From assembly GCA_045580545.1 (NCBI GenBank), contig JAZNOA010000007.1:65007-129006 (forward strand): 64,000 nucleotides of DNA. Direction: 5' to 3'. Each line of letters opens with the position of its first letter. Position 1 is the first letter of the stretch. Position numbers and translations under genes: made by a program. Under the pieces are notes generated by a model. That model ran no database searches. It was not told the DNA's origin and saw nothing but the letters and a program-made list of their open reading frames with translations. Shown here piece by piece: positions 3,040 through 22,782 of this stretch. This DNA comes from Acutalibacteraceae bacterium. GTDB lineage: Bacteria > Bacillota > Clostridia > Oscillospirales > Acutalibacteraceae.

Positions 3040-3042
3040 AAA

Positions 3043-3075: not shown

Positions 3076-3114
3076 TTATTAAATTATATGTCAATTTAAT
3101 ATTCTATGCCAATT

Positions 3115-5007: not shown

Positions 5008-5009
5008 CT

Positions 5010-6068: not shown

Positions 6069-6101
6069 TATATCTCCTACTATTCTATAAATCATTATGT
6101 G

Positions 6102-6314: not shown

Positions 6315-6415
6315 TATAACATATTTGTGAGAAAAAGCAATATTATAAAGTCGATTTTAATAGATTATAATAGAACAAAGGCGATTTAACTCATTTTCTC
6401 ATAATAATGATTTCT

Positions 6416-7822: not shown

Positions 7823-7832
7823 ATCGCACCTC

Positions 7833-8987: not shown

Positions 8988-9493
8988 TTTATCATCTCCT
9001 TTTTTTATTTGATTTTTTGGCTTCTGTTAGCCCTCACAATACCACATTTCATGCGGAATATCCAGCAATTTTGAGGCTTAATTTTATATGTCAGAAAATT
9101 AACCACGACCCCTCTCAAAACCCTTTAACCACGCGGGTTTGAGGGGGTTACGTGCAACCCAGAAACGCAAAACGGCCTCAGGGTGCTACCCAGAATTTTG
9201 ACTCTTCGAGGCCTCACAAAGCCTTTAACGGTCGGCATTGCCGTCCGTTGTGAAACGAAAAGGGGCGCCACAGCAACCCCTTTTCTTTCTCCTGCTTTAT
9301 TTTCGGTCGGTACCATATTTTCGTAATATTCAATTGTTATTTTTCCCTCAGTATTTCTTCGAATTTTTTGCAGGTCTTCACAAATCCTCAAATTTGCGTT
9401 TTAGCTTCTTTTTCGAGTATTTTCCTTAAGCTTCTATAAAAATCGCACACAGGCGAAATTACGGGCGAAATAATCGCAAACAGGTTCCATTGA

Positions 9494-9913
9494 CTATACT
9501 GCGTATTTCGATTGCTTTTCAAGTACTTTTTGAATTTTATAGTTTTTATCTAATTCTACTAGCTGTTGCTCGTGGTAATATTTAGATGCTTCGCCGATTG
9601 GACGGATAGTATAAAGCAAATTTCCGTTGCGAGTTTTTCCGTTTTTCAAACGAACCTTTGTAGGCTCTACCGTTATCAATTTCTTCTCGACTAAACTATC
9701 AACATATTTTCTTACTGTATTCACACTCATACCGAGTACCTTGCCTATGGTTTTATAGCTTGGGTAACACTGAAACGTTTTTCTATTTTCGAAATCCATA
9801 AGGCAAGTGTATACTGCAATTTCGCCACTGTTCAAACCTAACCTTATAATTTGTTTCGGCATTGGAATGTAATCTTTTACAGGGTCAGTTTTAGGATAGC
9901 GATAATATTTCAT
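9494..9913 (-). CDS. Winged-helix/HTH DNA-binding protein (element regulator or replication-initiator-like)
   Basis: 139 aa with ...GEIAVYTCLMDFENRKTFQCYPSYKTIGKVLGMSVNTVRKYVDSLVEKKLI.... Overlaps the upstream gene by 4 nt (ATGA). Confidence 0.6.
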   Translation of the reverse strand: MKYYRYPKTDPVKDYIPMPKQIIRLGLNSGEIAVYTCLMDFENRKTFQCYPSYKTIGKVLGMSVNTVRKYVDSLVEKKLITVEPTKVRLKNGKTRNGNLLYTIRPIGEASKYYHEQQLVELDKNYKIQKVLEKQSKYAV

Positions 9914-10119
9914 CGCTTTTCTCCTGACTTCTCATCTACCCAAGCTATAAATTTTTCTCGATTAATAAACATTCTGCTTCCGACTCTAAAGGATGGGAAA
10001 TCTTTTTCATGCATCAACTCATAAGCGGATGCAATACTGATACCTAGAACTTCCGTGAGGTTTTGAGCATTTAACATCAGCGGCAGTTCATCATAGGTTT
10101 TATACTTACAGTTGTTCAT
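9910..10119 (-). CDS. Excisionase-family HTH protein
   Basis: 69 aa with LNAQNLTEVLGISIASAYELMHEKDFPSFRVGSRMFINREKFIAWV (HTH_17-like). Confidence 0.65.
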   Translation of the reverse strand: MNNCKYKTYDELPLMLNAQNLTEVLGISIASAYELMHEKDFPSFRVGSRMFINREKFIAWVDEKSGEKR

Positions 10120-10467
10120 ATTGAATTTTTCCTTTCATTTTATTTGCCATATATTTTAGAACTTTTGGCACGTTCTTTTTTATACTGCCGCCTATCGCGG
10201 CGGCTATTCTGAGTTGGTCATTGTTATCACCCTTTCTATAATAATGTAATTTTTAAAATATTTTTCTTTGCAAAATCTTAGTGCTATGTTCCCACAAAGA
10301 AAAATAAAAGACTCATACATCAAAGCCGGAACGAAAATATAAAATCTTTCGATTCGCAGTTTTCGCATTAAGCGTTTTATGTATGAGTCTTAATTTATTG
10401 TCCTATTCTAAATGTATTTAGTTTATGTCTGAGAGACTTATTCGCAGATTTTATCAATCATAACGAA

Positions 10468-10557
10468 TTAATATTTGTTTTTAAAAAATATTCCTTTTAT
10501 CAGACCGAAAAGAACACCACCGATAAAAACATCGGCTTTTATTGATTTGTTAGACAT
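10468..10557 (-). CDS. 29-aa hydrophobic peptide translationally coupled to the 126-aa ORF
   Basis: TAATG stop/start overlap at 10559-10555. Translation MSNKSIKADVFIGGVLFGLIKGIFFKNKY. Below the ORF-track length cutoff. Confidence 0.35.
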   Translation of the reverse strand: MSNKSIKADVFIGGVLFGLIKGIFFKNKY

Positions 10558-10937
10558 TATTCTTCATCCTCTAAATCATATTTAATTTCGAGTGTTGATG
10601 AGTAACCGCTTGGGGTTTGAAATACAACAACATCTCTTTCGCCCATACATTGCCTCATTGCATTACATACAATAGGCATTAAATTTTTAAGATTTTTTGC
10701 CCTGTGGATATGTCCGGCTTTCAGTACCAAATACTTTTCACCGTTATTTCTTGCGTCTTCTTTTAGTTCTTCTATATATTGGCAAACTTCTTGTGTACTA
10801 ACCTTGGGTCTAATCACTGTCATATATTTAGACGTTGGTTTTTCAGGAATTTGTTTGCCATCCATTAAATAATCAACCTTTTCTTCTAAGTCCTTTATTC
10901 TTGATAACAACTCAACAATGATTTTTTCATAATTCAT
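10557..10937 (-). CDS. Hypothetical protein, N-terminal coiled coil
   Basis: 126-aa ORF in the same orientation as the island genes. No motif recognised. Confidence 0.55.
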   Translation of the reverse strand: MNYEKIIVELLSRIKDLEEKVDYLMDGKQIPEKPTSKYMTVIRPKVSTQEVCQYIEELKEDARNNGEKYLVLKAGHIHRAKNLKNLMPIVCNAMRQCMGERDVVVFQTPSGYSSTLEIKYDLEDEE

Positions 10938-11063
10938 AAGAATTACACCCCATATTCATAAATATTATATATGAATTTTAGCATAATTCTAAAAATTTGT
11001 CAAGGCCATTATTAAAAATTTTTTACACATAAAAAAGCGAAGCTGATTTAATAATCAACTCCG

Positions 11064-11099
11064 CTTATTCTTTGTTTACTGTGTATCAAATTTTGACAT
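11064..11099 (+). repeat. 36-bp direct repeat, copy 1
   Basis: cttattctttgtttactgtgtatcaaattttgacat matches 27280-27315 at 34 of 36 positions. Confidence 0.8.
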
Positions 11100-11180
11100 G
11101 CCAAATACTAATTAATATAACTTTTTATAAAGTAAATACATTTTTATAAAATCCACACTATAATACATAATTTGAAAATA

Positions 11181-12203
11181 TTAACTCCATGCAGGCCATA
11201 ATATTTCATCTAATTGTTCTAAAAATTTTTCTCCTTCTTCATTTTCAATCATATAAATATAGTAGGCTTTTCCATATAAATATTCACGATAATTAATAAA
11301 TTTTGTTGCATGACTGTTGTTGAGATGATTGGCAACACCAAATTTTTTACAAAAATATATTTCTTTTTTTAATTCTCTTTTAAAGCTTTTGGGAACACGA
11401 ATTCGACCATTTTGTACAACTAAACCTGTTATAAATTTAGGCTTTGCAACTGTATAATAAGATGTTTTTTTAGAATTTAAGTGAAATCCAAATTTTAAAA
11501 TTATTTCTTCTATTTTCGGTATTAAATATTCTATATCACTCTTAGAAGAAAATGTTATATCATCGGCGTAACGAGTAAAACTAGACTGATGCTCTTGAGC
11601 CAATTTATACAATTCACTATCCAATTTATCGCAAATGATATTTGCAATATGAGGACTAGTGGGAGCCCCTTGAGGAAGAACTCCGTTCAAACAACAAAGT
11701 TCCGCTAATCTTTCTGCCGCTGATTTTGTATATCCTAAATCAACAAACACCGATTCTACATTTTTTTGTTTTATAGATGGGAAGAAATCTTTGATATCGA
11801 TACATAGAACATAATCATTATTAGCATGCACAAGTGCATTTGTCTTAATGGATCTTTGCGGTTCAAAGCCATGAGCAAACTCAGAACATGATTTTTTATA
11901 CAAAATATTATCTAATATCCATCTTTGCCTTTTTTTGAGTTTTTTTGAGGGAGCAGATATTATCCTGTTTTTTGAATGTATAGAAACATTAAAAGTGTGA
12001 TAAGAATTTGATATTGTTTTACGACTTAAAAAACCATCAGAAATATTTAAAATCGCATTCAAATGATTTTCATCGAATATAACAGGTAAATCCTTTTTTA
12101 ATAAAACATCAGCGTAATGAGAACATTTTTTTATAAATTCCTGCGAATAATTTTCTGTTGTTAGCGCACTTTCTAATCTATTAATATATTCAGCATTATC
12201 CAT
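11181..12203 (-). CDS. Retron-type reverse transcriptase
   Basis: RT motifs IDIKDFFPSI, LPQGAPTSPHIANI and FTRYADDITFSS (YADD box). Start trimmed to MDNAEYINRL (ATG 12203), immediately downstream of the msr/msd inverted repeat. Confidence 0.9.
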   Translation of the reverse strand: MDNAEYINRLESALTTENYSQEFIKKCSHYADVLLKKDLPVIFDENHLNAILNISDGFLSRKTISNSYHTFNVSIHSKNRIISAPSKKLKKRQRWILDNILYKKSCSEFAHGFEPQRSIKTNALVHANNDYVLCIDIKDFFPSIKQKNVESVFVDLGYTKSAAERLAELCCLNGVLPQGAPTSPHIANIICDKLDSELYKLAQEHQSSFTRYADDITFSSKSDIEYLIPKIEEIILKFGFHLNSKKTSYYTVAKPKFITGLVVQNGRIRVPKSFKRELKKEIYFCKKFGVANHLNNSHATKFINYREYLYGKAYYIYMIENEEGEKFLEQLDEILWPAWS

Positions 12204-12228
12204 TGAATCACTTCTTCCAAAAATATAA

Positions 12229-12380
12229 TTCAGGTGTATGTTACGTAAAATAAATAATTGTTTCAAACAATTATTTTAATGTAAAATCGAAATTGAGCCT
12301 GCGAAATGAGATTTTACATTAAAAATGTAAGTGCCGTTTATAATTGGGGCGAATGCACCCCTAGCTAACATACACCTGAA
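12229..12380 (-). ncRNA. Retron msr-msd non-coding RNA (predicted)
   Basis: A perfect 15-bp inverted repeat (a1/a2), ttcaggtgtatgtta at 12229-12243 and taacatacacctgaa at 12366-12380, brackets two hairpins: GGGGTGCATTCGCCCC, and a 14-bp stem TTTAATGTAAAATC/GATTTTACATTAAA. Lies directly upstream of the RT. Confidence 0.7.
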
Positions 12381-12398
12381 ATTATATGTTAAATAACG

Positions 12399-12725
12399 TT
12401 AATCAAAAATATCTTTTGAAGGAATATAAATTCTTTTCCAATCATACATAGACTTATCCGATAATTTTTGATTATCACGATTTTTATATAAAAAAATTTC
12501 ATTTGATAATTTCTTTGATTTTCCGATGATTGTTAAAACGAAATTATTTTCCGAAATTTTTATATAACCCTTATTTATCAAATCATCAATACGTGAAACT
12601 ATAATAGATTTACTACATTTTAATTTTGAGGAAATTTGATTTAAATTTAAATCATTATTTTCTTCAATCTCATTTAAAATTATGCTATCATAAATCTCAA
12701 AATGGTCACTTTTAATAAGAATCAT
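12399..12725 (-). CDS. Winged-helix DNA-binding protein (retron accessory)
   Basis: 108 aa with LNQISSKLKCSKSIIVSRIDDLINKGYIKI (MarR/wHTH-like). Overlaps the upstream PRTase-like gene by 14 nt. Confidence 0.6.
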   Translation of the reverse strand: MILIKSDHFEIYDSIILNEIEENNDLNLNQISSKLKCSKSIIVSRIDDLINKGYIKISENNFVLTIIGKSKKLSNEIFLYKNRDNQKLSDKSMYDWKRIYIPSKDIFD

Positions 12726-13686
12726 CTCTTTTCAGTTCGGCAACAATATACGCATTGTTATCAGTAGCTTTTTTGGTAGCTTTTAAATGCTCTAAAGAAA
12801 GCCTTGGTTGATTTCCATCTCTTTTAAATGGCGGGAAGTTTTCTTTTGTTTCGCACCAGAAACTACTTAAAGTATTGTTAGGAGTATTATAATAAAATGC
12901 AACTCCCAATCTTGCTTCTTGAAATCCCATAAAGTATTTTACAGGTTTATCCTCAAAATATTTTTCAATCATTTTTTCATAATTTTCAAAAATAGTATAC
13001 TCTAAAGAATTTTTTTCAAACATATGATCAACAAACCAATTCTTTTTTATTAGCATTTTTATTTTAGTGTTACTATTTTTACAATTTCTTATAATTAATC
13101 TAACGCCACGTTTAGTAGGAGTTAAACAAGAACAATAATACTGTATGTTTTTATATCCCAGACTATTAAACTTACTTGTAACATTTTGTATTGTATGAGA
13201 TAACGTAATGCCACTACCAATCATATCATCTAGAAAAACAACGGCCTTAATTTTATTAAAAACCTTCAAATCAAACTTATCAAAAGAGGAAACTATATTT
13301 TCTTTAGTGATATTATTCTTTCTGTTTCTTTTATATAAATCTCCTATAATATCCTCTGCACCACTTTTGGTGCCTCGTGGTGACTCAACCACTACAAATA
13401 ACACTTCAGATATTTCTATGTTTAAAATTGAAATTTCCGTCTTTAATAGTTCAACAACTTCAACCCAATGATTCATACAATGTGCTTGTGTGAAATATGT
13501 AAACTTACTGAATACATCCAAAAATATTTCTCTATCTTCTGGTTGGATATTATTTAACCATTTTTCTAAATTGCTTTCCAAGCCAACAATATTATCATCA
13601 AAATCTGACGATTCTATATTAAAAGCACTGTTAAGATTTATTCTGTTGTTTTCATAGAATTTGCTTAACGCACTATTTTTATCCAA
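12712..13686 (-). CDS. Phosphoribosyltransferase-like protein (retron effector candidate)
   Basis: PRPP-binding-loop-like motif AVVFLDDMIGSGITLSHTI. Same operon as the wHTH, msr/msd and RT. Confidence 0.65.
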   Translation of the reverse strand: MDKNSALSKFYENNRINLNSAFNIESSDFDDNIVGLESNLEKWLNNIQPEDREIFLDVFSKFTYFTQAHCMNHWVEVVELLKTEISILNIEISEVLFVVVESPRGTKSGAEDIIGDLYKRNRKNNITKENIVSSFDKFDLKVFNKIKAVVFLDDMIGSGITLSHTIQNVTSKFNSLGYKNIQYYCSCLTPTKRGVRLIIRNCKNSNTKIKMLIKKNWFVDHMFEKNSLEYTIFENYEKMIEKYFEDKPVKYFMGFQEARLGVAFYYNTPNNTLSSFWCETKENFPPFKRDGNQPRLSLEHLKATKKATDNNAYIVAELKRDDSY

Positions 13687-13802
13687 TATATAAACACCTG
13701 CATTTTTTTTTATTATATCATAAATAGTAAAAAATTACAAATATAAATATGATGTTGTTGAAATTTGTAAATAAATGCAAATAATCCAACTATAAGTAGG
13801 CA

Positions 13803-14588
13803 TTATCCGCCATAGTTTTCAGCACTCATACATACGCAACCATACCAGTATTTATCCGTCTCGTTATAGGTGATTCCAACTGCTATATATCCATACTTTG
13901 AGTCGCCAACATAGTCCCAATGCTTTGCACTATTTTTAAATCCCTCAGCTATGTTTTTCGCTATCATATCGGCTGTACCAAACCATTCACCCTTGCATAT
14001 TGCCTCACGGTCATAGCCCTCGTAGTAATTATATTTGGCATTCATACCGTATTTGGTCATGTCAAAATATCTTCCGTATTTCAATTCTGCACACACTTCA
14101 CGGATATCAATATGTGCAAAATTATCTATTAACTGATTCGCTCTGTACCGTGCAACCTCTGTTAATCCTGGCAAAATAGTTGCGGTTTTATCGCCTTGTG
14201 CCACACGGAATTCGTTTATATATTTAACAAACAACTGTTCAACTTCTGCAGAATCGGCAATCACTTGCTCGACAACTTCTTCTATTGGTGTAGAATTCGT
14301 TTCCGTGGACGGCTCACTTGTCTCATTAATCTTTGCTGTCTCTTGAGGTTCATGGTTAGTTACAATGTCAGAACTCATATCCATAGGTTTACTCTCTACA
14401 TGGGTACTTTCTTCTTTTTTGGCTGTAATATATGCATCAATCGCAGATGAGACCTCTGTGTCACTTTCAGTTGTTTTTGTTTCCAATACCGTTATATCTG
14501 GTTTCTCCGTAGGCGTAGGCTCGGCTTTATTACAAGCCGAGCACATTATTAGCCCACAGCAGAGAAGAAGTAATATTGCCTTTTTCAT
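13803..14588 (-). CDS. Lipoprotein, possibly with a CAP/SCP-like C-terminal domain
   Basis: Signal peptide with lipobox MKKAILLLLCCGLIMCSAC, an acidic Thr/Glu-rich linker, then a globular C-terminus. Confidence 0.6.
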   Translation of the reverse strand: MKKAILLLLCCGLIMCSACNKAEPTPTEKPDITVLETKTTESDTEVSSAIDAYITAKKEESTHVESKPMDMSSDIVTNHEPQETAKINETSEPSTETNSTPIEEVVEQVIADSAEVEQLFVKYINEFRVAQGDKTATILPGLTEVARYRANQLIDNFAHIDIREVCAELKYGRYFDMTKYGMNAKYNYYEGYDREAICKGEWFGTADMIAKNIAEGFKNSAKHWDYVGDSKYGYIAVGITYNETDKYWYGCVCMSAENYGG

Positions 14589-14875
14589 ATTCCTTCTACC
14601 TCTTCCAATCCCTCCATCACCTCAACCATTATGCGAGTTGCAAGGATAAACCCTGCACTAAATGCCTCACGCTCGGTGATGCAGGTCAGTTCTCCCTGAC
14701 AATCTTTGAACTTATCAAAGGTTTCCTTTTGTTTCTCTGTTAGAGTCGAATTAAGATCTTCTTCGTTTTTGCATATCAGTTTAACGAGCTTATCCATTCT
14801 CGTTCCTCGCTTAATGTACCTTTCATGCGGACTGATGTTGCCATAGTATAAATCCTCAAGTGTTTTCATTTTCAT
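14585..14875 (-). CDS. Hypothetical small protein
   Basis: 96-aa ORF overlapping both neighbours, consistent with an operon. No motif recognised. Confidence 0.5.
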   Translation of the reverse strand: MKMKTLEDLYYGNISPHERYIKRGTRMDKLVKLICKNEEDLNSTLTEKQKETFDKFKDCQGELTCITEREAFSAGFILATRIMVEVMEGLEEVEGI

Positions 14876-15107
14876 CCCACCTTACATAAGAAGAGGACGA
14901 CTCGCAATCGGTCATTCCCGATATTGAGTCGCCCTCAATTTTCATTTTGTCTGCTGCAATCAGTGCGTGCTTTACTAGTAGCATATCCATCCAAGTCTGC
15001 TCGTCATACTCTGCTGGTCGACCATTCTTAAGATACTCTGCTACTGCCAAACTCATCACTTCATACTTTGCACCGTTGTAAACTTCTTCAATAGTTATTT
15101 GTGCCAT
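14856..15107 (-). CDS. Hypothetical small protein
   Basis: Start trimmed to MAQITIEEV (ATG 15107), preceded by GGAGGTG. Confidence 0.5.
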   Translation of the reverse strand: MAQITIEEVYNGAKYEVMSLAVAEYLKNGRPAEYDEQTWMDMLLVKHALIAADKMKIEGDSISGMTDCESSSSYVRWDENENT

Positions 15108-15294
15108 ATCAGCACCTCCTTTGCAGTACAAACATATACCACAAAGTTTTTCAAAAGTCCAGGAGATTTATTTATTTTTTCCTCTACTCTGATAATCAGT
15201 GTTGGTATCTCCACTCTAATTTTCATCAATGTTGGCATCAATGAAAAATCTACCAACCGTATTAATGGCATCTAACGTCAATTTTGTTATATCA

Positions 15295-16563
15295 TTACCC
15301 TTTTATTAAGTTGTTTTTAATTGTATTTATCATTGGTTTTCTAACGGTTGAAGTCATTTCCTCTATTTTTTTGCGAAAATCCAAATCCCAGTTACCTCTT
15401 TTTTCATAATCTGCCCATATTGGAAAGACGGAATTACAATATCTTACTCTCATCCCATAATCGAACGGTTCAAAAATTTCTTGTTTTTGAAATATTGGAT
15501 TTACAATCATAACTTTTAAGTTATCATTCAAATGCATTGCATGAGAAATCCTATGATTTATATGTTTATCTCCGAAACTATATCCAATAATATATAATTC
15601 ATCAATTTTTTCTAATCCGGAAGAAAACAACTCTATCTTTTCTTCGTTTCGATGGTTGGAAAACGTTGTGTGATATTTTTTACTTCCAGTCAAAATAGAT
15701 GGTTGCATAAATTGCATCGTTCTTTCAAAATCACTAAAACATATTTCGCCTTCAATGTTAGGTTTTTGACCATCGATGTAGTAATGAGGATTGTGAACAA
15801 ATTGCTCTAATCTTATTAGATATTCGAGAGAATTCTTACAATCGTTCTTTGGGAATAGTAACCGATATTTACCACTTTTTTCATCGCCCTGAAAATACTC
15901 ATTTAATCCACCATGTATTTTCAAAAGATTTATACCTTTAGTATTTGTCGCATAATTTAAGTTATCAACATTCTTTTCTGTAGCATCAATACGACCAAAT
16001 TCAAAAATGTCTTTCAAATTCTTATTAGATTGAGGAATTGGGAATGTATTAGAATACCCTTCGCATAACGGAATATTATAATCAATACACAACATCTCAA
16101 TAAGAATATCATGATTTAATGTAAAAATCCATAATTCATCTTTAGAAAACTCGTCGATTAACCATTTGTATTTATCTTTATTTAATAAATAATACAGATA
16201 TGTTTCCCTTTGATATATAAGAAACAACTCATTAATTATATTCCTTAGCTTTGCCAAGAAATATTGTCTTGTTTCTTGTGCTTCTCGACTCGATAAAGAC
16301 AGGTCCTCAATGATTTTAAACAGTTCTTCATAATTCTTATTGTCTGAGTTGAGAAATTCATTATAAATCTCAATAAACATATTTAAAGTTGTATTACAGA
16401 GCGTCCTGTCGATACTATAAGGTCTAAGTCCCTTCATTTTATTTATAATATAGGTCATCTTTGTAGCGTTAAAGAAACTAAACAATGTATCTGAGAATTC
16501 AGAAGCTAAGGGCATTCCTAAATCATAAGAAAATCCTGCACCTAATAATAATCCTTTTGCCAT
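15295..16563 (-). CDS. SIR2-family (SIR2_2-like) protein, putative NADase
   Basis: N-terminal LLLGAGFSYDLGMP, FTLNHDILIE, LLKIHGGLNEY and YIIGYSFGDKHIN match the defence-type sirtuin pattern. Confidence 0.8.
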   Translation of the reverse strand: MAKGLLLGAGFSYDLGMPLASEFSDTLFSFFNATKMTYIINKMKGLRPYSIDRTLCNTTLNMFIEIYNEFLNSDNKNYEELFKIIEDLSLSSREAQETRQYFLAKLRNIINELFLIYQRETYLYYLLNKDKYKWLIDEFSKDELWIFTLNHDILIEMLCIDYNIPLCEGYSNTFPIPQSNKNLKDIFEFGRIDATEKNVDNLNYATNTKGINLLKIHGGLNEYFQGDEKSGKYRLLFPKNDCKNSLEYLIRLEQFVHNPHYYIDGQKPNIEGEICFSDFERTMQFMQPSILTGSKKYHTTFSNHRNEEKIELFSSGLEKIDELYIIGYSFGDKHINHRISHAMHLNDNLKVMIVNPIFQKQEIFEPFDYGMRVRYCNSVFPIWADYEKRGNWDLDFRKKIEEMTSTVRKPMINTIKNNLIKG

Positions 16564-16581
16564 GACACCACCAGCATAACG

Positions 16582-17550
16582 TTAAATTTTCAATAGAACT
16601 TCTTCCAAAGAGTAGTTTTCAGAGAGTTCGTTCAATTTCATCTCATATATTGGAATCGATTGCTCTTTAGCAATCTTAATAAGTTTATTTCGATTTTGCT
16701 CGTTACAATTCATACCAATATAAATTGCTTTAGGAACTGCATCAATATACGGCATACCTTTCGCTGCTGCGCCCATAGAACATCTATATTCTTTTTCATA
16801 TTGCCATGTGGCTTGCTTTATATTGCATAAATACTGCGCTACATACACAATAGACATATCGCTTATATGTACGTTCTTTTTTCCTTGAGCAAGCTGAAGG
16901 TCAACCTCAGATGCAATCATTTCGGCATATTCTTTGATAAAACTTGTAATATCAAGTCGCTGATCCGTGTACTGAATCGGAAATGTACACGCAGACAGAG
17001 CAAGATTGTCATGATTTTCCATATCATAAGCGACGCAAAATCCATGATGATTGTTTGCATAATGTGCCCACATAGGCATACAACTTGTGTTATTTTCTGT
17101 TAATGCTGTACCCTTGTGAAACACAGTAAAATCATCAATAAATTTTCCATTGTGTGATGCCAATCGCTTTATACCTGCTAATTTTTTGTGGTCATAGAAA
17201 AACGCTTTTCCATCAAATGGATCATTAAAATCCTTGATATCAGACATGAAAATTTGTTTGTTTTTTAAAGTCGAAAGTTTTTTCTTATTCAATTTCTTAT
17301 CCGATGTTAGAGAATAGAACTTATACAGGGTATCTGGAATATACAATCTTGTTACTCTGTACAAAGCATCGAAAGTAGTTTTCATTACTATTTCATATGG
17401 TAGTTGAGGAGTTATATTTTTAGAAGTAAAAAGAATATATAAGAATTTAAAATAATCGACAGGGTTTTCTTGCAACCACTTTTCTTTATTAAAATCTTCA
17501 ACATCAATTTGAACCGTTGGGAGCGTATATTTAATATCTTCTATTTTCAC
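16582..17550 (-). CDS. DUF2971-like protein
   Basis: LYKFYSL...QIFMSDIKDFNDPFDG and MWAHYANNHHGFCVAYD resemble the DUF2971 signature. GTG start. Its stop is 18 nt upstream of the SIR2 start. Confidence 0.65.
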   Translation of the reverse strand: MKIEDIKYTLPTVQIDVEDFNKEKWLQENPVDYFKFLYILFTSKNITPQLPYEIVMKTTFDALYRVTRLYIPDTLYKFYSLTSDKKLNKKKLSTLKNKQIFMSDIKDFNDPFDGKAFFYDHKKLAGIKRLASHNGKFIDDFTVFHKGTALTENNTSCMPMWAHYANNHHGFCVAYDMENHDNLALSACTFPIQYTDQRLDITSFIKEYAEMIASEVDLQLAQGKKNVHISDMSIVYVAQYLCNIKQATWQYEKEYRCSMGAAAKGMPYIDAVPKAIYIGMNCNEQNRNKLIKIAKEQSIPIYEMKLNELSENYSLEEVLLKI

Positions 17551-17619
17551 AGCAACTACCTACCAATTTTTTGTGCATCTCAACAAGTTTTGCAACATGT
17601 TTAACTTTGACATTATTTC

Positions 17620-18033
17620 CTATATCAGAATCCCATCACAATGGTCAATTTCATGCTGGATTATTTGTGCCGTCCATCCAGTAAAGGTTTTAATACGTGT
17701 TTTGAATTCTGCAGTTTGCCACTGAACTTTAATGGACTTATAGCGTTTGCACGGACGAGGACCGCCGAGAAGAGAAAGACAACCTTCCTCAGTATCGTAC
17801 GGCCCTGATTTTTTGATAATTTCAGGATTAAACATCGTCATATATGTACCTTCATTATCAAATACAATAATCCTCTCGCACTCACCAATCATATTCGCCG
17901 CCATACCTACACAACCATCTTTATTGGCGATTAATGTATCTAATAAATCCTGTGCTACCTGCAAATCTTCTTTTGTCGCTGTCTCTGATTTTACCGCAAG
18001 AAAAATTGGGTCATGTATTATCTTTTTAATCAT
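17620..18033 (-). CDS. def: Peptide deformylase (short form)
   Basis: All three PDF motifs are present: GVGMAANMIG, EGCLSL and HEIDHCDG. RBS AAGGTGA. Confidence 0.85.
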   Translation of the reverse strand: MIKKIIHDPIFLAVKSETATKEDLQVAQDLLDTLIANKDGCVGMAANMIGECERIIVFDNEGTYMTMFNPEIIKKSGPYDTEEGCLSLLGGPRPCKRYKSIKVQWQTAEFKTRIKTFTGWTAQIIQHEIDHCDGILI

Positions 18034-18058
18034 ATTTTTTCACCTTAACGAACACTAA

Positions 18059-18793
18059 TTACCACAACCAAGGTTTTTTAAAACATTCTTCTGCAATATC
18101 AGTTCGTATTTCTTCGCGATATTCTTTATAAGAAAATTGGCGACTATCATATAACTTATCTAATGGTGCAAATAAAGGTTGTGTCCAATATCTTCCGTTA
18201 TCATCTTGCATTGTTATAGACATTATTGCGGATATTGGACCAGTAAGTACACGTTCCTTGTGATAACACAATTTAACCGTAACAGTTTCTCCAACGCGTA
18301 TCTTTTTATCGTGGCAATACCAATAATTCAACAAATTATGAGATGCCAATTTTTTTACATGCTCACAATCAAATATGCATGTATCCTTCTTAAAGTTACA
18401 AATTATATCCATAGAGGAAATATCTGTTTTGCCAGCGTTCTTAAAGGTGTATATTACACAGCACCAATCTTTTTTATCAAAGTCCTCTTCTCGATAATGT
18501 GCGTTAACTATATCGTTCTTTTTATCGCCTGAAATTGTTACATTTTCAATGCGTGCGACAAACAATTCTATATCGCACTTTTGCTTTATGCCATATCCGA
18601 TTCTTGATATATAATCTTTATAATCGATAATTGACATCTCGGGGCGATTTTCGAAAACGGTTTTTCTTTCTTTTCTCGCCTCTAATTTATCATTTCGTTT
18701 TTGCTTATAAAACTCTATAATCAAAGAAGTAAGTAATGTTATAGCTCCGCCGACAACACCGCTAATAAGTGCAATTATAATTTCGTTTTTCAT
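18059..18793 (-). CDS. Membrane-anchored hypothetical protein, Cys-rich
   Basis: N-terminal TM segment IIIALISGVVGGAITLLTSLIIEFY. No recognised domain. Confidence 0.55.
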   Translation of the reverse strand: MKNEIIIALISGVVGGAITLLTSLIIEFYKQKRNDKLEARKERKTVFENRPEMSIIDYKDYISRIGYGIKQKCDIELFVARIENVTISGDKKNDIVNAHYREEDFDKKDWCCVIYTFKNAGKTDISSMDIICNFKKDTCIFDCEHVKKLASHNLLNYWYCHDKKIRVGETVTVKLCYHKERVLTGPISAIMSITMQDDNGRYWTQPLFAPLDKLYDSRQFSYKEYREEIRTDIAEECFKKPWLW

Positions 18794-18828
18794 CTTTTTC
18801 TTTTAAATACTACCTCACATCTATATTG

Positions 18829-19152
18829 TTAGTCATTATCTAGTCCTAACCACTTAAGGCGAGATGATATGCTTCCTGTTGTTCTACCAAGTTCTTTTGA
18901 AATTTCTTTTTTGGGTAGTCCGCTATTATATAATTCTTCCAGGCGCCCTTCTTCATCTTTCGTCCATGGCTTTCCAGCATTTTTTGGAAGACTCTTTTGA
19001 ATTTTACAATCTAAAACTTTAATAACCGTATAAAAAGCCCGCACCACTTCGCCTTTATTGCACACATTATCTGCATCAAGTAGTTCTCCTGTTGTTGGGT
19101 CTATTCCTTCTGCCAATACAGATATGATTTCTTTAGCCTTATTAATATCCAT
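18829..19152 (-). CDS. Small HTH/Myb-like DNA-binding protein
   Basis: C-terminal PWTKDEEGRLEELYNSGLPKKEISKELGRTTGSISSRLKWLGL. Start overlaps the stop of the upstream methylase by 11 nt. Confidence 0.55.
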   Translation of the reverse strand: MDINKAKEIISVLAEGIDPTTGELLDADNVCNKGEVVRAFYTVIKVLDCKIQKSLPKNAGKPWTKDEEGRLEELYNSGLPKKEISKELGRTTGSISSRLKWLGLDND

Positions 19153-20098
19153 CCTTCATCACCTTCATAATATTCTCTGCTATGCACCTTATCACTGGTA
19201 CAACTACGCTGTTACCGCATTGCTTATATGCACTTGCCATTGGAATTTTAGGAAAACGATATGTTTTTGGAAAACCTTGCAATGCTAAGCACTCGTATGG
19301 TGTAAGTTTTCGAATACCAAAATTGTCTCGAATAATTGGCACCCGATCATGGTACGTTCCCATATTCGCTTTTAATGTAGGACATATATCCCATTTGCGA
19401 GTAGCCACACCACTGTCATCAATTCTATAAATACCTGTCTTATCGACAATTTTTGCATTCAGCTGTTTAAAATATCGGCTCTCAGAGCCGTAATAATAAA
19501 TATCATCGTGTTTTATGCTCCGGTCGATAATATCATTAATCGTTGTTTCTAACGTCACTGCTTCGGGAAATGAGAACCTGTCACAATCCTCTATATCGCG
19601 AAAAGCCACAATAAAAATACGCGCACGATTCTGTGGGATATTAACATCTGTAGCATTTATTACTTTATATTTAACTGAATATCCGAATTGTGCCAAAGTA
19701 TTATATATAACAAGAAACGTTTTTCCGTTATCGTGTTCCATTAAATTTTGAACATTTTCAAGAAACACAACTCTCGGCATTTTTGCTTCTATAAACCTTG
19801 CAATTTCAAAAAATAAATTGCCACGGGGATCATTAAACCCGCGTTTATATCCCATTACCGAAAACGGTTGACACGGAAATCCTGCCGTCAACACATCAAC
19901 ATTTGTAAGATTATCAGGATTAACATTTCTTACATCTTCGTCAATCAGCATAGTTTTCGGGAAATTATGTTTATACGTCCTACACACATCGGAATCTATT
20001 TCATTAGCCCATGCAATTTGAAAACCCGCTTGTTCAAAGCCAAGGTCAATGCCACCTATTCCCGAAAATAAACTTCCGACTTTAATAAAACTTGGCAT
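19142..20098 (-). CDS. DNA (cytosine-5)-methyltransferase
   Basis: SLFSGIGG, GFPCQPFS, ENV, QNRARIF, GNSVVVPV. Confidence 0.9.
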   Translation of the reverse strand: MPSFIKVGSLFSGIGGIDLGFEQAGFQIAWANEIDSDVCRTYKHNFPKTMLIDEDVRNVNPDNLTNVDVLTAGFPCQPFSVMGYKRGFNDPRGNLFFEIARFIEAKMPRVVFLENVQNLMEHDNGKTFLVIYNTLAQFGYSVKYKVINATDVNIPQNRARIFIVAFRDIEDCDRFSFPEAVTLETTINDIIDRSIKHDDIYYYGSESRYFKQLNAKIVDKTGIYRIDDSGVATRKWDICPTLKANMGTYHDRVPIIRDNFGIRKLTPYECLALQGFPKTYRFPKIPMASAYKQCGNSVVVPVIRCIAENIMKVMKDGY

Positions 20099-20101
20099 GA
20101 T

Positions 20102-20878
20102 TTATCTGCTTGCCCTTATGTGTAAAGCACCGCGATAATCTCCGCTATGATACTCAACCCAACGAGCAATACTTTCTGCATTCTTTCCGAAAAAAGTGTT
20201 TGGATTATAATTTTTAGGCATGCCTTTTTTTGCTCTGAGACTAAAAATTAATTTAGGCCATACATCGTTTACGGCATCTTCTCTGGTTAAAAGTCTATAT
20301 GTAGATTCATCCACAGGATTACCAAATTCTATAATATAATCTGCCGGAAAAGCAGAGCGCTTGCTACCTGTACCTTCAAAAAGAAAGTATTCCAGAATGG
20401 GACGCATATACTCTTTATAGCCTTTGAATGGACAATTGAAGTCACTTATACGAGTATCTTCAGTTATGATTCCATCCATGCGCTTATTCCAATAATCATC
20501 AACAATATTATCCAGAGTATCAATGGATGTATTGGCATTTAGACATGCAAATTCAAAACCCGGACGAGCGGTATGATTTACAAGTGCTGCAGGTGCTGCT
20601 GCCATTGATTTTAATGAATAACCTGCACCATCAATATAAACATCCGCTTTTGCACCGGTAGGAGCTTTAAGTATTCCCATGGAAGCAGCCAATCTGTTCA
20701 ATTCAAAATCATTCATCACTAATACCGCGTTCATATCTATACCATTAGGTAACGAACCATACTCTATTCTGTCAAAGCCAACACTTTTAACGGTTTCACC
20801 TAAAAGAGATTCGCCCCAATCTCTTTTTTGAGTCATATATATTTTAAAAATTAACTCGTCTCTTTCGCCAACGTTCAT
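20102..20878 (-). CDS. Probable Type II restriction endonuclease (cognate of the adjacent methylase)
   Basis: 258 aa, 3-nt gaps to both neighbours. Possible PD-(D/E)XK-like element KADVYIDGAGYSLKS. The call rests mostly on context. Confidence 0.45.
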   Translation of the reverse strand: MNVGERDELIFKIYMTQKRDWGESLLGETVKSVGFDRIEYGSLPNGIDMNAVLVMNDFELNRLAASMGILKAPTGAKADVYIDGAGYSLKSMAAAPAALVNHTARPGFEFACLNANTSIDTLDNIVDDYWNKRMDGIITEDTRISDFNCPFKGYKEYMRPILEYFLFEGTGSKRSAFPADYIIEFGNPVDESTYRLLTREDAVNDVWPKLIFSLRAKKGMPKNYNPNTFFGKNAESIARWVEYHSGDYRGALHIRASR

Positions 20879-20881
20879 TTT

Positions 20882-21868
20882 TTATTCTCCTTTTTCAAAC
20901 ATATGAATTTCACTTATGAACTTCTCGGGTGCAGATAAAATTTTTACCATTTTTTGATATTGAATAGGTTTACAATCACTATCTATATATTTAATAATTC
21001 TTTTTATATGTGATTCTGAATAAAAATACCAACCGTAAACAATGTCAAGTTCATTATCGGATACCCTTTTATACCTTTTCAATTCCGGCAAAAGTTTCTT
21101 AATTTCCTCTTCTGATTTTTCTATATTTGATTTTATTCCATCACGCTTCTTAATCGCTTTCGCAGAACATTCACTCAGATCTTTTTTATATTGTTTCAAC
21201 CTTTTCTGTAGACGCAATTTCTTTTTACGAAGTTTATCGTATTCTATAGCCACTTCTGTTTTTAAAGGGCATATTAAATGATTCCCCTGCGGAAGTTCGC
21301 CTCTTTTTCCGGTTAGTCTTTCTATATCATGCGGCAATCCTCTGGATGAAAACTGATATAGCCAAATACGAAATTCTTTGTTTTTATACTGTAATAACAC
21401 ATCAGTGTGGTCTCCGCTGTCTTGCTTTGCGTTTAATGATGTTTCTACAGCTGCATCTTTTGAAATCAAATTTTCCTTAATCATAAAAGCAAAATCAGGT
21501 TCACGTAATAAAGAAGTTAAAGTTCGGAGACCTCTTGCCAATGCCCCTGTAATTTGTGCTTCATCATTAGTTGTTTTCTTACATTCACAAAGTAATTTCA
21601 CAAGATAAGTTGCCGGTGAAAAATTAATTTTTTCAATCTCTTCATGGAAAATCTCACTATATGTCTTCTTTATTCCGGTTCTGGATTCCTCTGTTTTAGG
21701 TAAATGCTCACAAGAATATCCATCCATTGGTATATTAAGAATTTGAAGTTTTGAAAAAATTCTTTCAGCCAAAGAAAAAAGTTCCGGATCTTGTTCATAA
21801 AGATACTCTATTCCATCTTTATACGTTTTTTCGGACCATATTTTGCATAATTCTCTTATATTAGACAT
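20882..21868 (-). CDS. Hypothetical protein with a Lys-rich coiled coil (possible second endonuclease or specificity factor)
   Basis: 328 aa. GDHTDVLLQYKNKEFRIW is a possible nuclease-like D..D-x-K element. Coiled coil KLRKKKLRLQKRLKQYKKDL. Its stop lies 3 nt upstream of the start of the downstream 20102..20878 endonuclease-candidate gene. Confidence 0.5.
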   Translation of the reverse strand: MSNIRELCKIWSEKTYKDGIEYLYEQDPELFSLAERIFSKLQILNIPMDGYSCEHLPKTEESRTGIKKTYSEIFHEEIEKINFSPATYLVKLLCECKKTTNDEAQITGALARGLRTLTSLLREPDFAFMIKENLISKDAAVETSLNAKQDSGDHTDVLLQYKNKEFRIWLYQFSSRGLPHDIERLTGKRGELPQGNHLICPLKTEVAIEYDKLRKKKLRLQKRLKQYKKDLSECSAKAIKKRDGIKSNIEKSEEEIKKLLPELKRYKRVSDNELDIVYGWYFYSESHIKRIIKYIDSDCKPIQYQKMVKILSAPEKFISEIHMFEKGE

Positions 21869-21941
21869 TTTTATCTCCTATATATTTTAGTTACAATAAG
21901 AACAAGGCCTTTCGGCCGTACATGTTCATTTTTAAGTCGAC

Positions 21942-22772
21942 TTAAATAATATCGAGGGTTCTCAGCTGATTGCCAATAGCTTTAATAACTACCGTAGGCA
22001 CTGCATTTCCAACTTGTTTATATTGATTATCCTTATTACCCGCCAAATAAAAATCACGCGGGAATCCTTGAACTTCAAGACATTCTTCAACAGTTATATA
22101 GTGTAATTCGCCGTTAACGCGATAGCAATCCCAATTGTATTTATTGTCTATTCCGGAACGTCTGCCACCAATTCTTATTGTATATGCATATTCTCTTTCA
22201 GTATGTCCGTGCATAACATCAGAAAGCGTTTTATCGCACCCTGTCGGTTCAGGAAATACAAACTCTTTTTTTATATCGTTCCGTACTCCAACAATAAAAA
22301 CTCTCTTTCTTATTTGAGGTACTCCATAGTCCTTTGCTTCCAGAACATCATGATATACTTTATACCCGCATTTTGTAAGCTCTTCAATAATCACTTTAAA
22401 GGTTTCGCCCTTATTATGAGAGAGTAACCCCTTGACATTTTCTAAAATAAAAGCTTTAGGTTTGCATTCTTTCAGCAATCTTATCACTTGATATATAAGG
22501 GCACCTCTGGGATCATCAAGTCCACCTTTTTGACCTACATTGCTAAATGACTGACATGGAAACCCTCCACACAACAAATCAAATTCGGGAATATCCTTAA
22601 CGTCTATTTTACTTATATCACCTTTAGGTGTTATTCCATAATTTCTCTCATATGTTTCGATAGCAATTGGATCGATTTCCGAAGCCATAACACACTCGCC
22701 TCCGCATTGTGTCAGCCCGTAATGAAATCCTCCTATACCGGAAAATAAATCTATAAATTTAAAATTTAACAT
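21942..22772 (-). CDS. DNA (cytosine-5)-methyltransferase (compact, 276 aa)
   Basis: DLFSGIGG, GFPCQSFS, ENV, QIRKRVFIVG, GNAVP. Confidence 0.9.
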   Translation of the reverse strand: MLNFKFIDLFSGIGGFHYGLTQCGGECVMASEIDPIAIETYERNYGITPKGDISKIDVKDIPEFDLLCGGFPCQSFSNVGQKGGLDDPRGALIYQVIRLLKECKPKAFILENVKGLLSHNKGETFKVIIEELTKCGYKVYHDVLEAKDYGVPQIRKRVFIVGVRNDIKKEFVFPEPTGCDKTLSDVMHGHTEREYAYTIRIGGRRSGIDNKYNWDCYRVNGELHYITVEECLEVQGFPRDFYLAGNKDNQYKQVGNAVPTVVIKAIGNQLRTLDII

Positions 22773-22782
22773 CGTATTTCCT

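What the first reader, a model, noticed from the sequence alone, without database searches (positions are those of the whole stretch)
15295..17550. Candidate undescribed two-gene defence system: DUF2971-like protein coupled to a SIR2-family NADase
The 422-aa protein shows the defence-type sirtuin pattern: LLLGAGFS at the N-terminus, TLNHD, KIHGG and IIGYSFGDKHIN. It has no attached sensor domain (no SLOG, HerA, pAgo, STAND or Avs module). The upstream gene ends 18 nt before it and shares the same AT-rich composition. That gene encodes a 322-aa protein with DUF2971-like motifs (FMSDIKDFNDPFDG, MWAHYANNHHGFCVAYD). Described SIR2 defence systems, as far as I know, are ThsA/Thoeris, DSR1/2, SIR2-HerA, SIR2-pAgo and Avs fusions, and none pairs SIR2 with DUF2971. 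The DUF2971 protein is therefore a candidate sensor or partner for NAD+ depletion.
Basis: partly seen in the sequence, partly recalled or inferred. Interest (0 to 1): 0.75.

Follow-up and report, generated by a model that had tools for sequence, protein, structure and literature searches.

The report
Aristaios-like gene stacked with orphan SIR2
Two adjacent anti-phage-type genes, a homologue of the known single-gene defence protein Aristaios (DUF2971) and a standalone SIR2 enzyme predicted to destroy NAD+, travel together as a small cassette in a few gut Clostridia, but each is usually found without the other, so this looks like two stacked defences rather than a new two-part system.

Summary
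Two minus-strand ORFs lie 18 nt apart in a low-GC integrative defence island: DUF2971 (16582-17550, 322 aa) and SIR2-like (15295-16563, 422 aa).

- **DUF2971 is already described.** It matches PADLOC single-gene candidate PDC-S31 (1.9e-34). It is 41% identical over its full length (E 1e-90) to Aristaios, a lactococcal protein shown to give abortive-infection defence when cloned alone.
- **The SIR2 is a standalone type.** It belongs to a ~420-aa family found across phyla, with invariant GAGFS, N150-H151-D152 and H217-G218 motifs. Its fold is closest to the SIR2 subunit of SIR2-HerA, but no HerA or any other recurrent neighbour is present.
- **The cassette is real but narrow.** DUF2971-18 nt-SIR2 occurs in four unrelated backgrounds, only where SIR2 is at least 78% identical.
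- **Each gene usually occurs without the other.** One lineage deleted DUF2971 and kept SIR2 intact. More distant SIR2s follow other genes. None of six DUF2971 clusters looked up independently has SIR2 downstream.

Best reading (0.6): two autonomous abortive-infection genes stacked in one cassette. Main rival (0.25): a DUF2971-led bicistron with a swappable effector. Interest is modest.

The parts
16582..17550 (-). DUF2971 / PDC-S31 / Aristaios-family protein, 322 aa, GTG start. The literature predicts a DarT/AbiGi-like ADP-ribosyltransferase fold.
   Evidence: ORF. Pfam PF11185 4.7e-11. PADLOC PDC-S31 1.9e-34. 41% identity over 316 aa to Aristaios of pUCCL641D, E 1e-90. Invariant N109, D110, W161, Y164, G170, Y194, K245, W249, E252, E254 and G279 across 61 diverse members. 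dN/dS 0.05-0.15.
16564..16581 (-). 18-nt spacer between the two genes with a Shine-Dalgarno-like GGTGGTG. The same length and similar sequence occur in all cassette copies and in the DUF2971-deleted lineage.
   Evidence: No promoter or terminator signal above background.
15295..16563 (-). Standalone SIR2-like protein, 422 aa, a predicted NAD+ hydrolase. Motifs: GAGFS 8-12, N150-H151-D152, H217-G218, G327-Y328-x-F330-x-D332.
   Evidence: ORF. Family alignment with invariant residues. AF2 pLDDT 92.7, pTM 0.91. Foldseek best hit is the SIR2 subunit of SIR2-HerA, 8sub/8uae, E 6e-10. Family profile against PDB sequences hits only SIR2-HerA SIR2s. PADLOC generic SIR2 models 3e-12, partial. dN/dS 0.07-0.17.
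15289..17596 (-). Extent of the mobile two-gene cassette, meaning the limits of DNA homology with the copies in unrelated backgrounds L001, L169 and L171.
   Evidence: blastn of window 9000-24000 against the loci. Homology runs from 20-46 nt upstream of the DUF2971 start to about 6 nt past the SIR2 stop and nowhere else.

Best explanation
The locus is a small, evolutionarily labile cassette of two autonomous abortive-infection-type defence genes, co-transcribed inside an integrative defence island.

Gene 1 is a member of the Aristaios / PDC-S31 (DUF2971) family. By homology with Aristaios it should act alone. On phage infection it is inferred to poison a nucleic-acid or protein target, and published work predicts it does so by NAD+-dependent ADP-ribosylation. 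The reported effect of Aristaios is on phage transcription.

Gene 2 is a standalone ~420-aa SIR2-type enzyme. It keeps the conserved Asn/His NAD+-site motifs and is inferred to hydrolyse NAD+ once triggered, as in other SIR2 defence effectors. It probably works as a homo-oligomer without a dedicated partner.

SIR2 was captured once downstream of a DUF2971 gene. The pair then spread as a unit, while DUF2971 alleles and downstream genes kept being exchanged.

Shown here: gene identities, conservation of motifs, the SIR2 fold, the cassette limits, and the lack of conserved synteny. Inferred: the enzymatic activities, the triggers, and that each gene is sufficient for defence in this host.
For: - DUF2971 matches PDC-S31. 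It is 41% identical over its full length to Aristaios (E 1e-90), which sits between IS elements with no SIR2 and gave an abortive-infection phenotype when cloned alone (PMC11381338; PMC13064643).
- The DUF2971 family is very large (4,627 representative clusters) and almost entirely made of standalone ~270-320-aa proteins.
- SIR2 family members (30-83% identity) keep GAGFS, NHD, HG and GYxFxD invariant.
- In about 20 independent SIR2-family loci, none of 38 immediate neighbours belongs to a family seen more than twice. At least a third are defence types: ApeA, AbiEii, AbiJ, SoFic, IetS, a restriction endonuclease, HEPN, PDC-S58.
- L073/L080 retain a remnant of DUF2971 (about 22 N-terminal codons plus about 6 C-terminal codons) and the same 18-nt spacer upstream of an intact SIR2. 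That SIR2 sequence occurs on 23 contigs. dN/dS against its sister L001 is 0.165.
- SIR2s at 67-70% identity follow a different 243-aa gene at a 6-nt gap. The 59%-identical one follows Fic.
- Of six DUF2971 clusters at 66-73% identity sampled without reference to SIR2, none has SIR2. The downstream gene is a DUF2971 paralogue, a 184-aa membrane protein, an FRG protein, or nothing.
- Gene trees and dN values are incongruent between the two genes.
- Precedent exists for single-gene SIR2 defence: sole-Sir2 and the sirtuin-like AbiH.
Against: - The pair has a fixed 18-nt spacer with no detectable internal promoter or terminator.
- It has moved as a unit into at least four unrelated backgrounds, with homology limited to the two genes. 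That is what a functional two-gene unit would also look like.
- Close DUF2971 genes very often lead a tight bicistron (gaps of 17-39 nt) with a variable second gene. This resembles the conserved-component-plus-swappable-effector layout of several true multi-gene systems.
- Both proteins are predicted NAD+ users, so cross-talk is plausible.
- The ADP-ribosyltransferase fold of DUF2971 could not be verified here. The AF2 model failed at pLDDT 45, and neither the PDB profile search nor the Pfam scan gave an ART hit.
- No experiment exists for this SIR2 family.
Confidence: 0.6

Rival explanations
1. A genuine cooperative two-gene module. The Aristaios-like DUF2971 protein is the conserved first component (sensor, activator or first-line toxin) of a bicistron whose second gene is a swappable effector. 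Here that effector is a SIR2 NADase. Elsewhere it is a DUF2971 paralogue, a small membrane protein or an FRG protein. The two might also be coupled through NAD+/ADP-ribose chemistry, for example if the ART modifies or activates SIR2, or if SIR2 limits ART toxicity by lowering NAD+.
For: - Fixed 18-nt spacing, and cassette-only homology in four backgrounds.
- Close DUF2971 genes are followed at 17-39 nt by variable genes of effector-like types.
- In the same type III Mod-Res-DUF2971 background the downstream slot holds either SIR2 (L171) or the 184-aa membrane protein (L176/L177).
- One distant, reversed-order SIR2-DUF2971 adjacency exists (L121).
- In L169 a Macro-domain gene follows SIR2, which hints at an ADP-ribosylation cycle.
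Against: - Aristaios works alone (PMC11381338).
- DUF2971 also occurs with no tightly coupled downstream gene (L178, 209-nt gap to a backbone gene).
- SIR2 persists intact after DUF2971 was deleted.
- The SIR2 family has no recurrent partner in about 20 loci.
- DUF2971 is packed equally tightly against upstream restriction-modification genes (1 nt after MmeI), so tight spacing is a property of these islands and not evidence of partnership.
Confidence: 0.25
2. A toxin-antitoxin or addiction-type pair that stabilises the mobile island rather than defending against phage. One enzyme would be the toxin (the ART) and the other would neutralise it, by analogy with DarT-DarG.
For: - The location on an integrative element with two integrases.
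- The literature places DUF2971 near DarT/AbiGi toxins (PMC12522546).
- The operon layout is tight.
Against: - DUF2971 genes are commonly found without SIR2 and without any macro-domain partner, so SIR2 cannot be an obligatory antitoxin.
- SIR2 survives without DUF2971.
- SIR2 enzymes are not known to reverse nucleic-acid ADP-ribosylation (general knowledge).
Confidence: 0.07
3. One of the two genes is an inactive passenger, for example a decaying SIR2 left over from a SIR2-HerA-type system that lost its partner.
For: - The fold is closest to SIR2-HerA SIR2 but no HerA is present.
- One relative (L002) has a frameshifted SIR2.
Against: - dN/dS is 0.07-0.17.
- Catalytic motifs are invariant across phyla.
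- More than 250 clusters of full-length ~420-aa proteins exist.
Confidence: 0.05

Closest known systems
Aristaios (Lactococcus plasmid pUCCL641D, 316 aa; Grafakou et al. 2024, PMC11381338), which corresponds to PADLOC candidate PDC-S31 and Pfam DUF2971
   Same: Full-length homology: 41% identity, E 1e-90. Same size. Same conserved blocks: NDPF(D/E)GKAF, MPMWAHYANNHxGFCV, FPxQYT, WxYExE(Y/F)R. It is a standalone protein carried on mobile DNA.
   Different: Different host group (gut Clostridia rather than Lactococcus). Here it is followed at 18 nt by a SIR2 gene, whereas Aristaios is flanked by IS elements. No phenotype has been measured for this member.
SIR2 subunit of SIR2-HerA (Nezha) systems, PDB 8sub, 8uae, 8suw, 8wld, 8yhx
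   Same: It is the best structural match, and the alignment covers the full length (E 6e-10, TM about 0.5). It is also the only PDB family reached by the sequence profile. Size is similar at about 400 aa, and it shares the GYGFGDxHIN block.
   Different: Only 17-18% identity. No HerA ATPase lies next to it in the window or in about 20 related loci. PADLOC SIR2 models match only weakly and partially. NCBIfam SIR2_antiphage scores 28 bits against a cut-off of 500.
sole-Sir2 (bioRxiv 10.1101/2024.12.27.630466) and lactococcal AbiH, both single-gene SIR2-like defence proteins
   Same: The concept is the same: a ~350-440-aa standalone SIR2-fold protein acting without a dedicated partner. sole-Sir2 converts NAD+ to ADPR in vitro, and a homologue protects against T2 and T4. 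AbiH is described as sirtuin-like.
   Different: sole-Sir2 is described as having a C-terminal Sir2 domain resembling DSR2 plus a distinct N-terminal part. Here the SIR2 motifs start at residue 8 and the nearest fold is SIR2-HerA. No sole-Sir2 sequence was available for comparison. There was no Pfam or PADLOC AbiH hit.
DarT-DarG (ADP-ribosyltransferase toxin plus macrodomain antitoxin)
   Same: The literature places DUF2971 near DarT/AbiGi. The operon is a tight two-gene layout and the chemistry depends on NAD+.
   Different: The second gene is a SIR2, not a macrodomain. A macro gene appears only in one related locus (L169) and there it lies after SIR2. The ART fold was not verified here.

Membership tests
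Aristaios / PDC-S31 / DUF2971 (PF11185) | Match to Pfam DUF2971 above the gathering score | tested here: met
   44.3 bits against a cut-off of 22, E 4.7e-11.
Aristaios / PDC-S31 / DUF2971 (PF11185) | Match to the PADLOC PDC-S31 models | tested here: met
   PDLC04990 at 1.9e-34, plus three further PDC-S31 models.
Aristaios / PDC-S31 / DUF2971 (PF11185) | Full-length homology to the experimentally validated Aristaios protein | tested here: met
   129 of 316 residues identical, E 1e-90, covering residues 1-315. The hit lies on pUCCL641D and encodes a 316-aa protein, as in the paper's table.
Aristaios / PDC-S31 / DUF2971 (PF11185) | Conserved putative catalytic residues (a Tyr and an ExE motif, as described in PMC12522546) | tested here: met
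   Y164, E252 and E254 are invariant in 61 diverse members and in Aristaios.
Aristaios / PDC-S31 / DUF2971 (PF11185) | ADP-ribosyltransferase fold | tested here: inconclusive
   The AF2 model failed at pLDDT 45. The profile search of PDB sequences and a permissive Pfam scan of 61 members gave no ART hit. The assignment rests on PMC11381338 and PMC12522546.
Aristaios / PDC-S31 / DUF2971 (PF11185) | Single-gene phage protection | not testable with these tools
   Needs cloning and phage assays.
SIR2-type NADase defence effectors (Pfam SIR2_2 clan) | SIR2 Rossmann-type fold | tested here: met
   Model pLDDT 92.7. Foldseek hits bacterial defence SIR2s and then human SIRT2 and Sir2Tm. Pfam SIR2_2 itself scores 21.4 bits, below its 24.5 cut-off.
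SIR2-type NADase defence effectors (Pfam SIR2_2 clan) | Conserved NAD+-site residues (GAGxS loop, catalytic Asn, catalytic His) | tested here: met
   G8, A9, G10, F11, S12, N150, H151, D152, H217 and G218 are invariant in 35 sequences down to 30% identity. Assigning N150 and H217 as the catalytic pair is by motif analogy and is an inference.
SIR2-type NADase defence effectors (Pfam SIR2_2 clan) | NAD+ hydrolysis on infection | not testable with these tools
   Needs biochemistry and NAD+ measurement.
SIR2-HerA (Nezha) | Adjacent HerA-type ATPase partner | tested here: not met
   No HerA in the window neighbourhood or among 38 neighbours of about 20 family loci.
Thoeris ThsA | C-terminal SLOG domain and a ThsB (TIR) partner | tested here: not met
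   The model is a single SIR2-type fold of 422 aa. ThsA 6lhx matches only at E 1e-2, probability 0.63. A TIR-like neighbour occurs in only one distant locus (L004).
DSR1 / DSR2 | Large (about 900-1000 aa or more) protein with a C-terminal sensor region | tested here: not met
   The protein is 422 aa, and the whole family is about 417-450 aa.
AbiH | Match to the AbiH profile (Pfam or PADLOC) | tested here: not met
   No AbiH hit at E <= 0.01 in Pfam or PADLOC.
sole-Sir2 | Sequence homology to the published ~440-aa sole-Sir2 | not testable with these tools
   No sequence or accession is held. Only the single-gene concept is shared.
   Adjacency occurs only where SIR2 is at least 78% identical (window/L095, L001, L169, L171), plus one distant reversed case among roughly 55 sister-clade loci (L121). 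It is absent from L002-L012, L081, L096-L101, L136 and L172, and from six of six DUF2971-based look-ups.
DarTG-like toxin-antitoxin | Macrodomain antitoxin adjacent to the ART | tested here: not met
   No Macro hit among the window neighbours. Macro appears only in L169, after SIR2.

The most novel reading that the evidence does not exclude
Aristaios-family DUF2971 genes may define a modular two-component defence family. A conserved ART-like first gene would be translationally coupled to a swappable second gene: a SIR2 NADase, an FRG protein, a small membrane protein or a DUF2971 paralogue. The module is often appended to MmeI or type III restriction-modification operons. In this window the ART-like protein would then sense infection or prime the response, and the orphan SIR2 would execute NAD+ depletion. 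That would be a direct functional link between ADP-ribosylation and SIR2-mediated NAD+ collapse.
Probability: 0.2. Interest if true: 0.7.

Novelty: new member of a known kind. Interest (0 to 1): 0.33.

Why it matters
If the best explanation is right, the finding is mainly useful as annotation.
- It extends the experimentally validated Aristaios family from lactococcal plasmids to gut Clostridia.
- It flags a widespread ~420-aa orphan SIR2 family, with a fold like the SIR2 of SIR2-HerA but no HerA, which PADLOC 2.0 and NCBIfam do not assign and which would be a reasonable single-gene candidate to test.
- It is a clean natural example of defence-gene modularity. Homology breakpoints fall exactly at gene borders. 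A deletion scar of DUF2971 survives upstream of SIR2. The same restriction-modification backbone carries alternative downstream genes.

If instead the cooperative reading is right, it would add a new partner class for SIR2 effectors and a mechanistic link between ART and NADase immunity.

Tried and rejected
1. Structure of DUF2971. The AF2 run on a 26-sequence alignment of close homologues (65-87% identity) gave pLDDT 45 and was discarded.
2. Independent check of the ART assignment. A 61-sequence profile against PDB sequences gave only a spurious hit at E 0.64. A permissive Pfam scan of all 61 members found no DarT, AbiGi or Tox-ART hits. The question remains unresolved.
3. Promoter and terminator scan of 14.5-19.3 kb. 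Counts equalled those of shuffled sequence and no terminators were found, so it was uninformative.
4. Viral-contig scan with the DUF2971 alignment found nothing.
5. My own two-round DUF2971 HMM missed the 332-aa paralogue that Pfam detects weakly, so the census was backed up with Pfam and PADLOC scans.
6. The 184-aa ORF downstream of DUF2971 in L176/L177 was tested as a possible SIR2 remnant and is unrelated.
7. The same-frame arrangement of the two ORFs (a possible read-through fusion) was considered. It was rejected as insignificant because the stop codon is conserved in all copies and the chance of a shared frame is 1 in 3.
8. SIR2-HerA, Thoeris, DSR and AbiH membership were all rejected (see the membership table).
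9. The sole-Sir2 sequence was sought for comparison, but no supplementary files are held.
10. Literature search for 'PDC-S31' returned no papers.
Full report
OBSERVATION. The two ORFs are real and lie on the minus strand. DUF2971 is 16582..17550 (322 aa, GTG start) and the SIR2-like gene is 15295..16563 (422 aa). They are separated by exactly 18 nt, TAA-CGTTATGCTGGTGGTGTC-ATG, which contains a Shine-Dalgarno-like GGTGGTG. GC is 0.32-0.34 here against 0.42-0.45 in the right half of the window. A consensus promoter and terminator scan gave nothing above shuffled background.

CONTEXT. The pair lies in a low-GC integrative island next to tRNA-Pro (2964-3039).
- Two tandem tyrosine integrases sit at 6416-7822 and 7833-8987.
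- HTH_36 and HTH_17 genes follow them.
- There is a complete type III-A retron: RT 11181-12266, winged-helix 12399-12725, PRTase 12712-13686.
- The island also carries several Dcm methyltransferases, including a 494-aa methyltransferase (22783-24267), a DUF2806/Abi_alpha gene (27467-28378), and a peptide deformylase directly upstream of DUF2971.
- A 16.5-kb Logan contig (L095) carries the same element.

IDENTITY OF GENE 1. Pfam DUF2971 is above its gathering score. PADLOC assigns the protein to PDC-S31, a candidate single-gene system (1.9e-34). A tblastn search of plasmids found, as the only full-length hit, a 316-aa DUF2971 protein on Lactococcus plasmid pUCCL641D. This fits the 'Aristaios' entry (pUCCL641_199, 316 aa) of Grafakou et al. 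2024 (PMC11381338). The window protein is 41% identical to it over 316 residues, E 1e-90. Aristaios was cloned as a single gene and gave an abortive-infection phenotype. A later review lists phage transcription as the affected step (PMC13064643). In pUCCL641D the gene is flanked by IS6 elements with no SIR2 nearby. The family is very large, with 4,627 representative clusters at 50% identity, nearly all standalone proteins of ~270-320 aa. N109, D110, W161, Y164, G170, Y194, K245, W249, E252, E254 and G279 are invariant in 61 diverse members.

Two papers assign DUF2971 to the ADP-ribosyltransferase fold, near DarT and AbiGi, with a conserved Tyr and an ExE motif (PMC12522546; PMC11381338). I could not verify this. 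My AF2 model failed at pLDDT 45, and neither a profile search of PDB sequences nor a permissive Pfam scan of 61 members returned an ART family. The ART mechanism is therefore literature-based.

IDENTITY OF GENE 2. The protein belongs to a sharply defined family of ~417-450-aa standalone proteins. There are 253 clusters at E <= 1e-3, from Clostridia, Bacilli, Vibrio, Shewanella, Leptospira, Aliarcobacter, Sulfuricurvum, Flavobacterium and others. In 35 members down to 30% identity, the GAGFS loop (8-12), N150-H151-D152, H217-G218 and G327-Y328-x-F330-x-D332 are invariant. The AF2 model is confident (pLDDT 92.7, pTM 0.91). Foldseek places it nearest to the SIR2 subunits of SIR2-HerA complexes (8sub, 8uae, 8suw, 8wld, 8yhx; E down to 6e-10, TM about 0.5, full-length, 17-18% identity). 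These rank ahead of housekeeping sirtuins and far ahead of ThsA. The family profile reaches only those same PDB sequences. PADLOC SIR2 models match weakly and partially. NCBIfam SIR2_antiphage scores 28 bits against a cut-off of 500.

IS THE PAIR A SYSTEM? SYNTENY FROM THE SIR2 SIDE. Genome and metagenome scans with the family alignment gave about 23 independent loci of the true family and about 55 of a sister clade.
- Only the window's own lineage (L095) and L001 have DUF2971 upstream.
- Look-ups of close SIR2 clusters added L169 and L171.
- All four share the 18-nt spacer. blastn homology with the window is confined to the cassette, window 15289-17596.
- The flanks differ: peptide deformylase in the window, HsdR...YjbR upstream and Macro downstream in L169, and type III Mod-Res upstream with a Mob/integrase element downstream in L171. 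So the pair has moved as a unit.

Other relatives lack an intact DUF2971 next to SIR2.
- The 83%-identical SIR2 P0003 occurs on 23 contigs and follows HEPN-ApeA. The 156-nt 'intergenic' region there is a DUF2971 deletion scar. It keeps about 22 N-terminal codons (MKIGDISYTFQTAEISVKDFDKE) fused in frame to about 6 C-terminal codons (VLLNI*), followed by the same spacer.
- That SIR2 is intact and nests inside the DUF2971-linked clade. Its dN/dS against its sister is 0.165.
- At 67-70% identity the upstream gene is an unrelated 243-249-aa protein at a 6-nt gap. At 59% identity it is Fic.
- Further out it is AbiJ-like, TIR-like, a PstI-type restriction endonuclease, DUF6216, HEPN, an integrase or an unknown.
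- All-against-all BLAST of neighbours found no recurrent family. In a Pfam and PADLOC census of 38 neighbours no family occurred more than twice, while at least a third were defence types.
- One sister-clade locus (L121) has a DUF2971 gene (28% identical) downstream of a 24%-identical SIR2 at a 263-nt gap.

SYNTENY FROM THE DUF2971 SIDE. More than 120 clusters are at least 65% identical to the window protein, against about 10 SIR2 clusters at that level. I looked up six clusters without reference to SIR2, and none has SIR2.
- P0137 and P0187: MmeI-[1 nt]-DUF2971-DUF2971 paralogue.
- P0134 and P0140: the same type III Mod-Res-DUF2971 backbone as L171, but followed by an unrelated 184-aa membrane protein. 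Homology with L171 ends at the DUF2971 stop.
- P0173: DUF2971-[17 nt]-FRG protein.
- P0231: DUF2971 followed after 209 nt by the backbone gene DUF6809.

In NJ trees the SIR2-linked DUF2971s interleave with MmeI-linked ones. Pairwise dN values for the two genes are incongruent. For L001 against L171, SIR2 dN is 0.081 and DUF2971 dN is 0.199. The DUF2971 of L001 is closer to MmeI-linked L089, at 0.093. So alleles have re-assorted within the cassette. The MmeI genes that carry ApeA-SIR2 and those that carry DUF2971-DUF2971' are 68-77% identical. One restriction-modification backbone therefore hosts alternative downstream modules.

INTERPRETATION. The relationship is asymmetric. One SIR2 subclade is ancestrally linked to DUF2971, whereas the DUF2971 clade is mostly not linked to SIR2. 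Each gene occurs, intact and under purifying selection, without the other. Gene 1 has an experimentally autonomous homologue. Single-gene SIR2 defence has precedent: sole-Sir2 is ~440 aa, shows NADase activity in vitro, and a homologue protects against T2 and T4; AbiH is sirtuin-like. The most economical reading is two autonomous abortive-infection genes stacked in one cassette (confidence 0.6).

The main rival (0.25) is that DUF2971 leads bicistrons with a swappable second gene, as in true modular systems. The fixed spacer, the movement as a unit and the effector-like variety of downstream genes keep this alive. The equally tight packing against upstream restriction-modification genes, the autonomy of Aristaios and the survival of SIR2 after DUF2971 loss argue against it. 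A toxin-antitoxin or addiction role (0.07) and a decaying passenger gene (0.05) are less likely.

COMPARISON AND NOVELTY. Gene 1 is a new member of the Aristaios / PDC-S31 family. Gene 2 is a member of an unassigned orphan SIR2 family. It works like standalone SIR2 defences, but it is not a member of SIR2-HerA (no HerA), Thoeris (no SLOG or ThsB), DSR (too small) or AbiH (no profile match). The specific pairing is not in PADLOC 2.0 or the searched literature, but the evidence does not support it as an obligate system. Overall rating: new member of a known kind; interest 0.33.

Noticed in passing
window 11181-13686 (minus strand): A complete type III-A retron module: RT 11181-12266 (PADLOC RT_III-A, 7e-127), a small winged-helix protein 12399-12725, and PRTase 12712-13686 (PRTase_III-A, 1.4e-55). 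Rfam found no ncRNA, and the msr/msd locus was not located.
   Followed up: partly
window 17620-18033 (minus strand): A 137-aa peptide deformylase (NCBIfam PRK09218, 1.5e-57; PHROG 2890) is encoded inside the mobile defence island, 69 nt upstream of DUF2971. It is an unusual cargo gene, and its role here is unknown.
   Followed up: no
window 2964-8987: tRNA-Pro (2964-3039) is followed by a 630-aa HATPase_c_3 protein, a Dcm methyltransferase, and two tandem tyrosine integrases (6416-7822 and 7833-8987). This suggests two islands integrated in tandem at the same tRNA site. The att repeats were not searched for.
   Followed up: no
window 19142-24267 (minus strand): Three C5-cytosine methyltransferase genes: 19142-20098, 21942-22772, and 22783-24267 (494 aa; its N-terminal extension looks Vsr-like by eye and was not scanned). 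Two unannotated ORFs lie between them (20102-20878 and 20882-21868) with no Pfam, PADLOC or NCBIfam hits. They may be the cognate restriction enzymes.
   Followed up: no
window 29011-31086 (plus strand): A 691-aa protein with eight DUF4379 treble-clef zinc-finger repeats (4e-179) and a weak REase_MTES_1575 hit, at the strand switch that ends the island.
   Followed up: no
window 27467-28378 (minus strand): A DUF2806 / Abi_alpha-like protein of 303 aa, another abortive-infection-type gene in the same island.
   Followed up: no
L073:4845-5000 and L080:2373-2528: The 156-nt 'intergenic' region between HEPN-ApeA and SIR2 is an in-frame deletion scar of a DUF2971 gene. It still encodes a 28-codon mini-ORF, followed by the conserved 18-nt spacer.
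   Followed up: yes
L083:2222-7217 and L089:2237-7034: A recurrent MmeI-type restriction-modification gene is followed at 1 nt by an Aristaios-like DUF2971 gene and then by a divergent DUF2971 paralogue (21-32% identical, with Y and ExE conserved). This may be a restriction-modification-linked double-DUF2971 module worth its own analysis.
   Followed up: partly
L169:3011-6374: Here the DUF2971-SIR2 cassette is followed, after 79 nt, by a 341-aa Macro-domain protein. The trio of ART-like, SIR2 and Macro genes hints at an ADP-ribosylation cycle. It was seen in only one background.
   Followed up: no
L172:1996-3999 and L002:7245-9265: SIR2s at 67-70% identity are coupled at a 6-nt gap to a 243-249-aa protein with no Pfam or PHROG hit and only a marginal PADLOC hit (PDC-S29, E 0.0064). 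The two copies are 84% identical to each other. In L002 the SIR2 is frameshifted.
   Followed up: partly
window 16867-17103 (plus strand): A 78-aa ORF antisense to DUF2971. It has no support and is most likely spurious.
   Followed up: no
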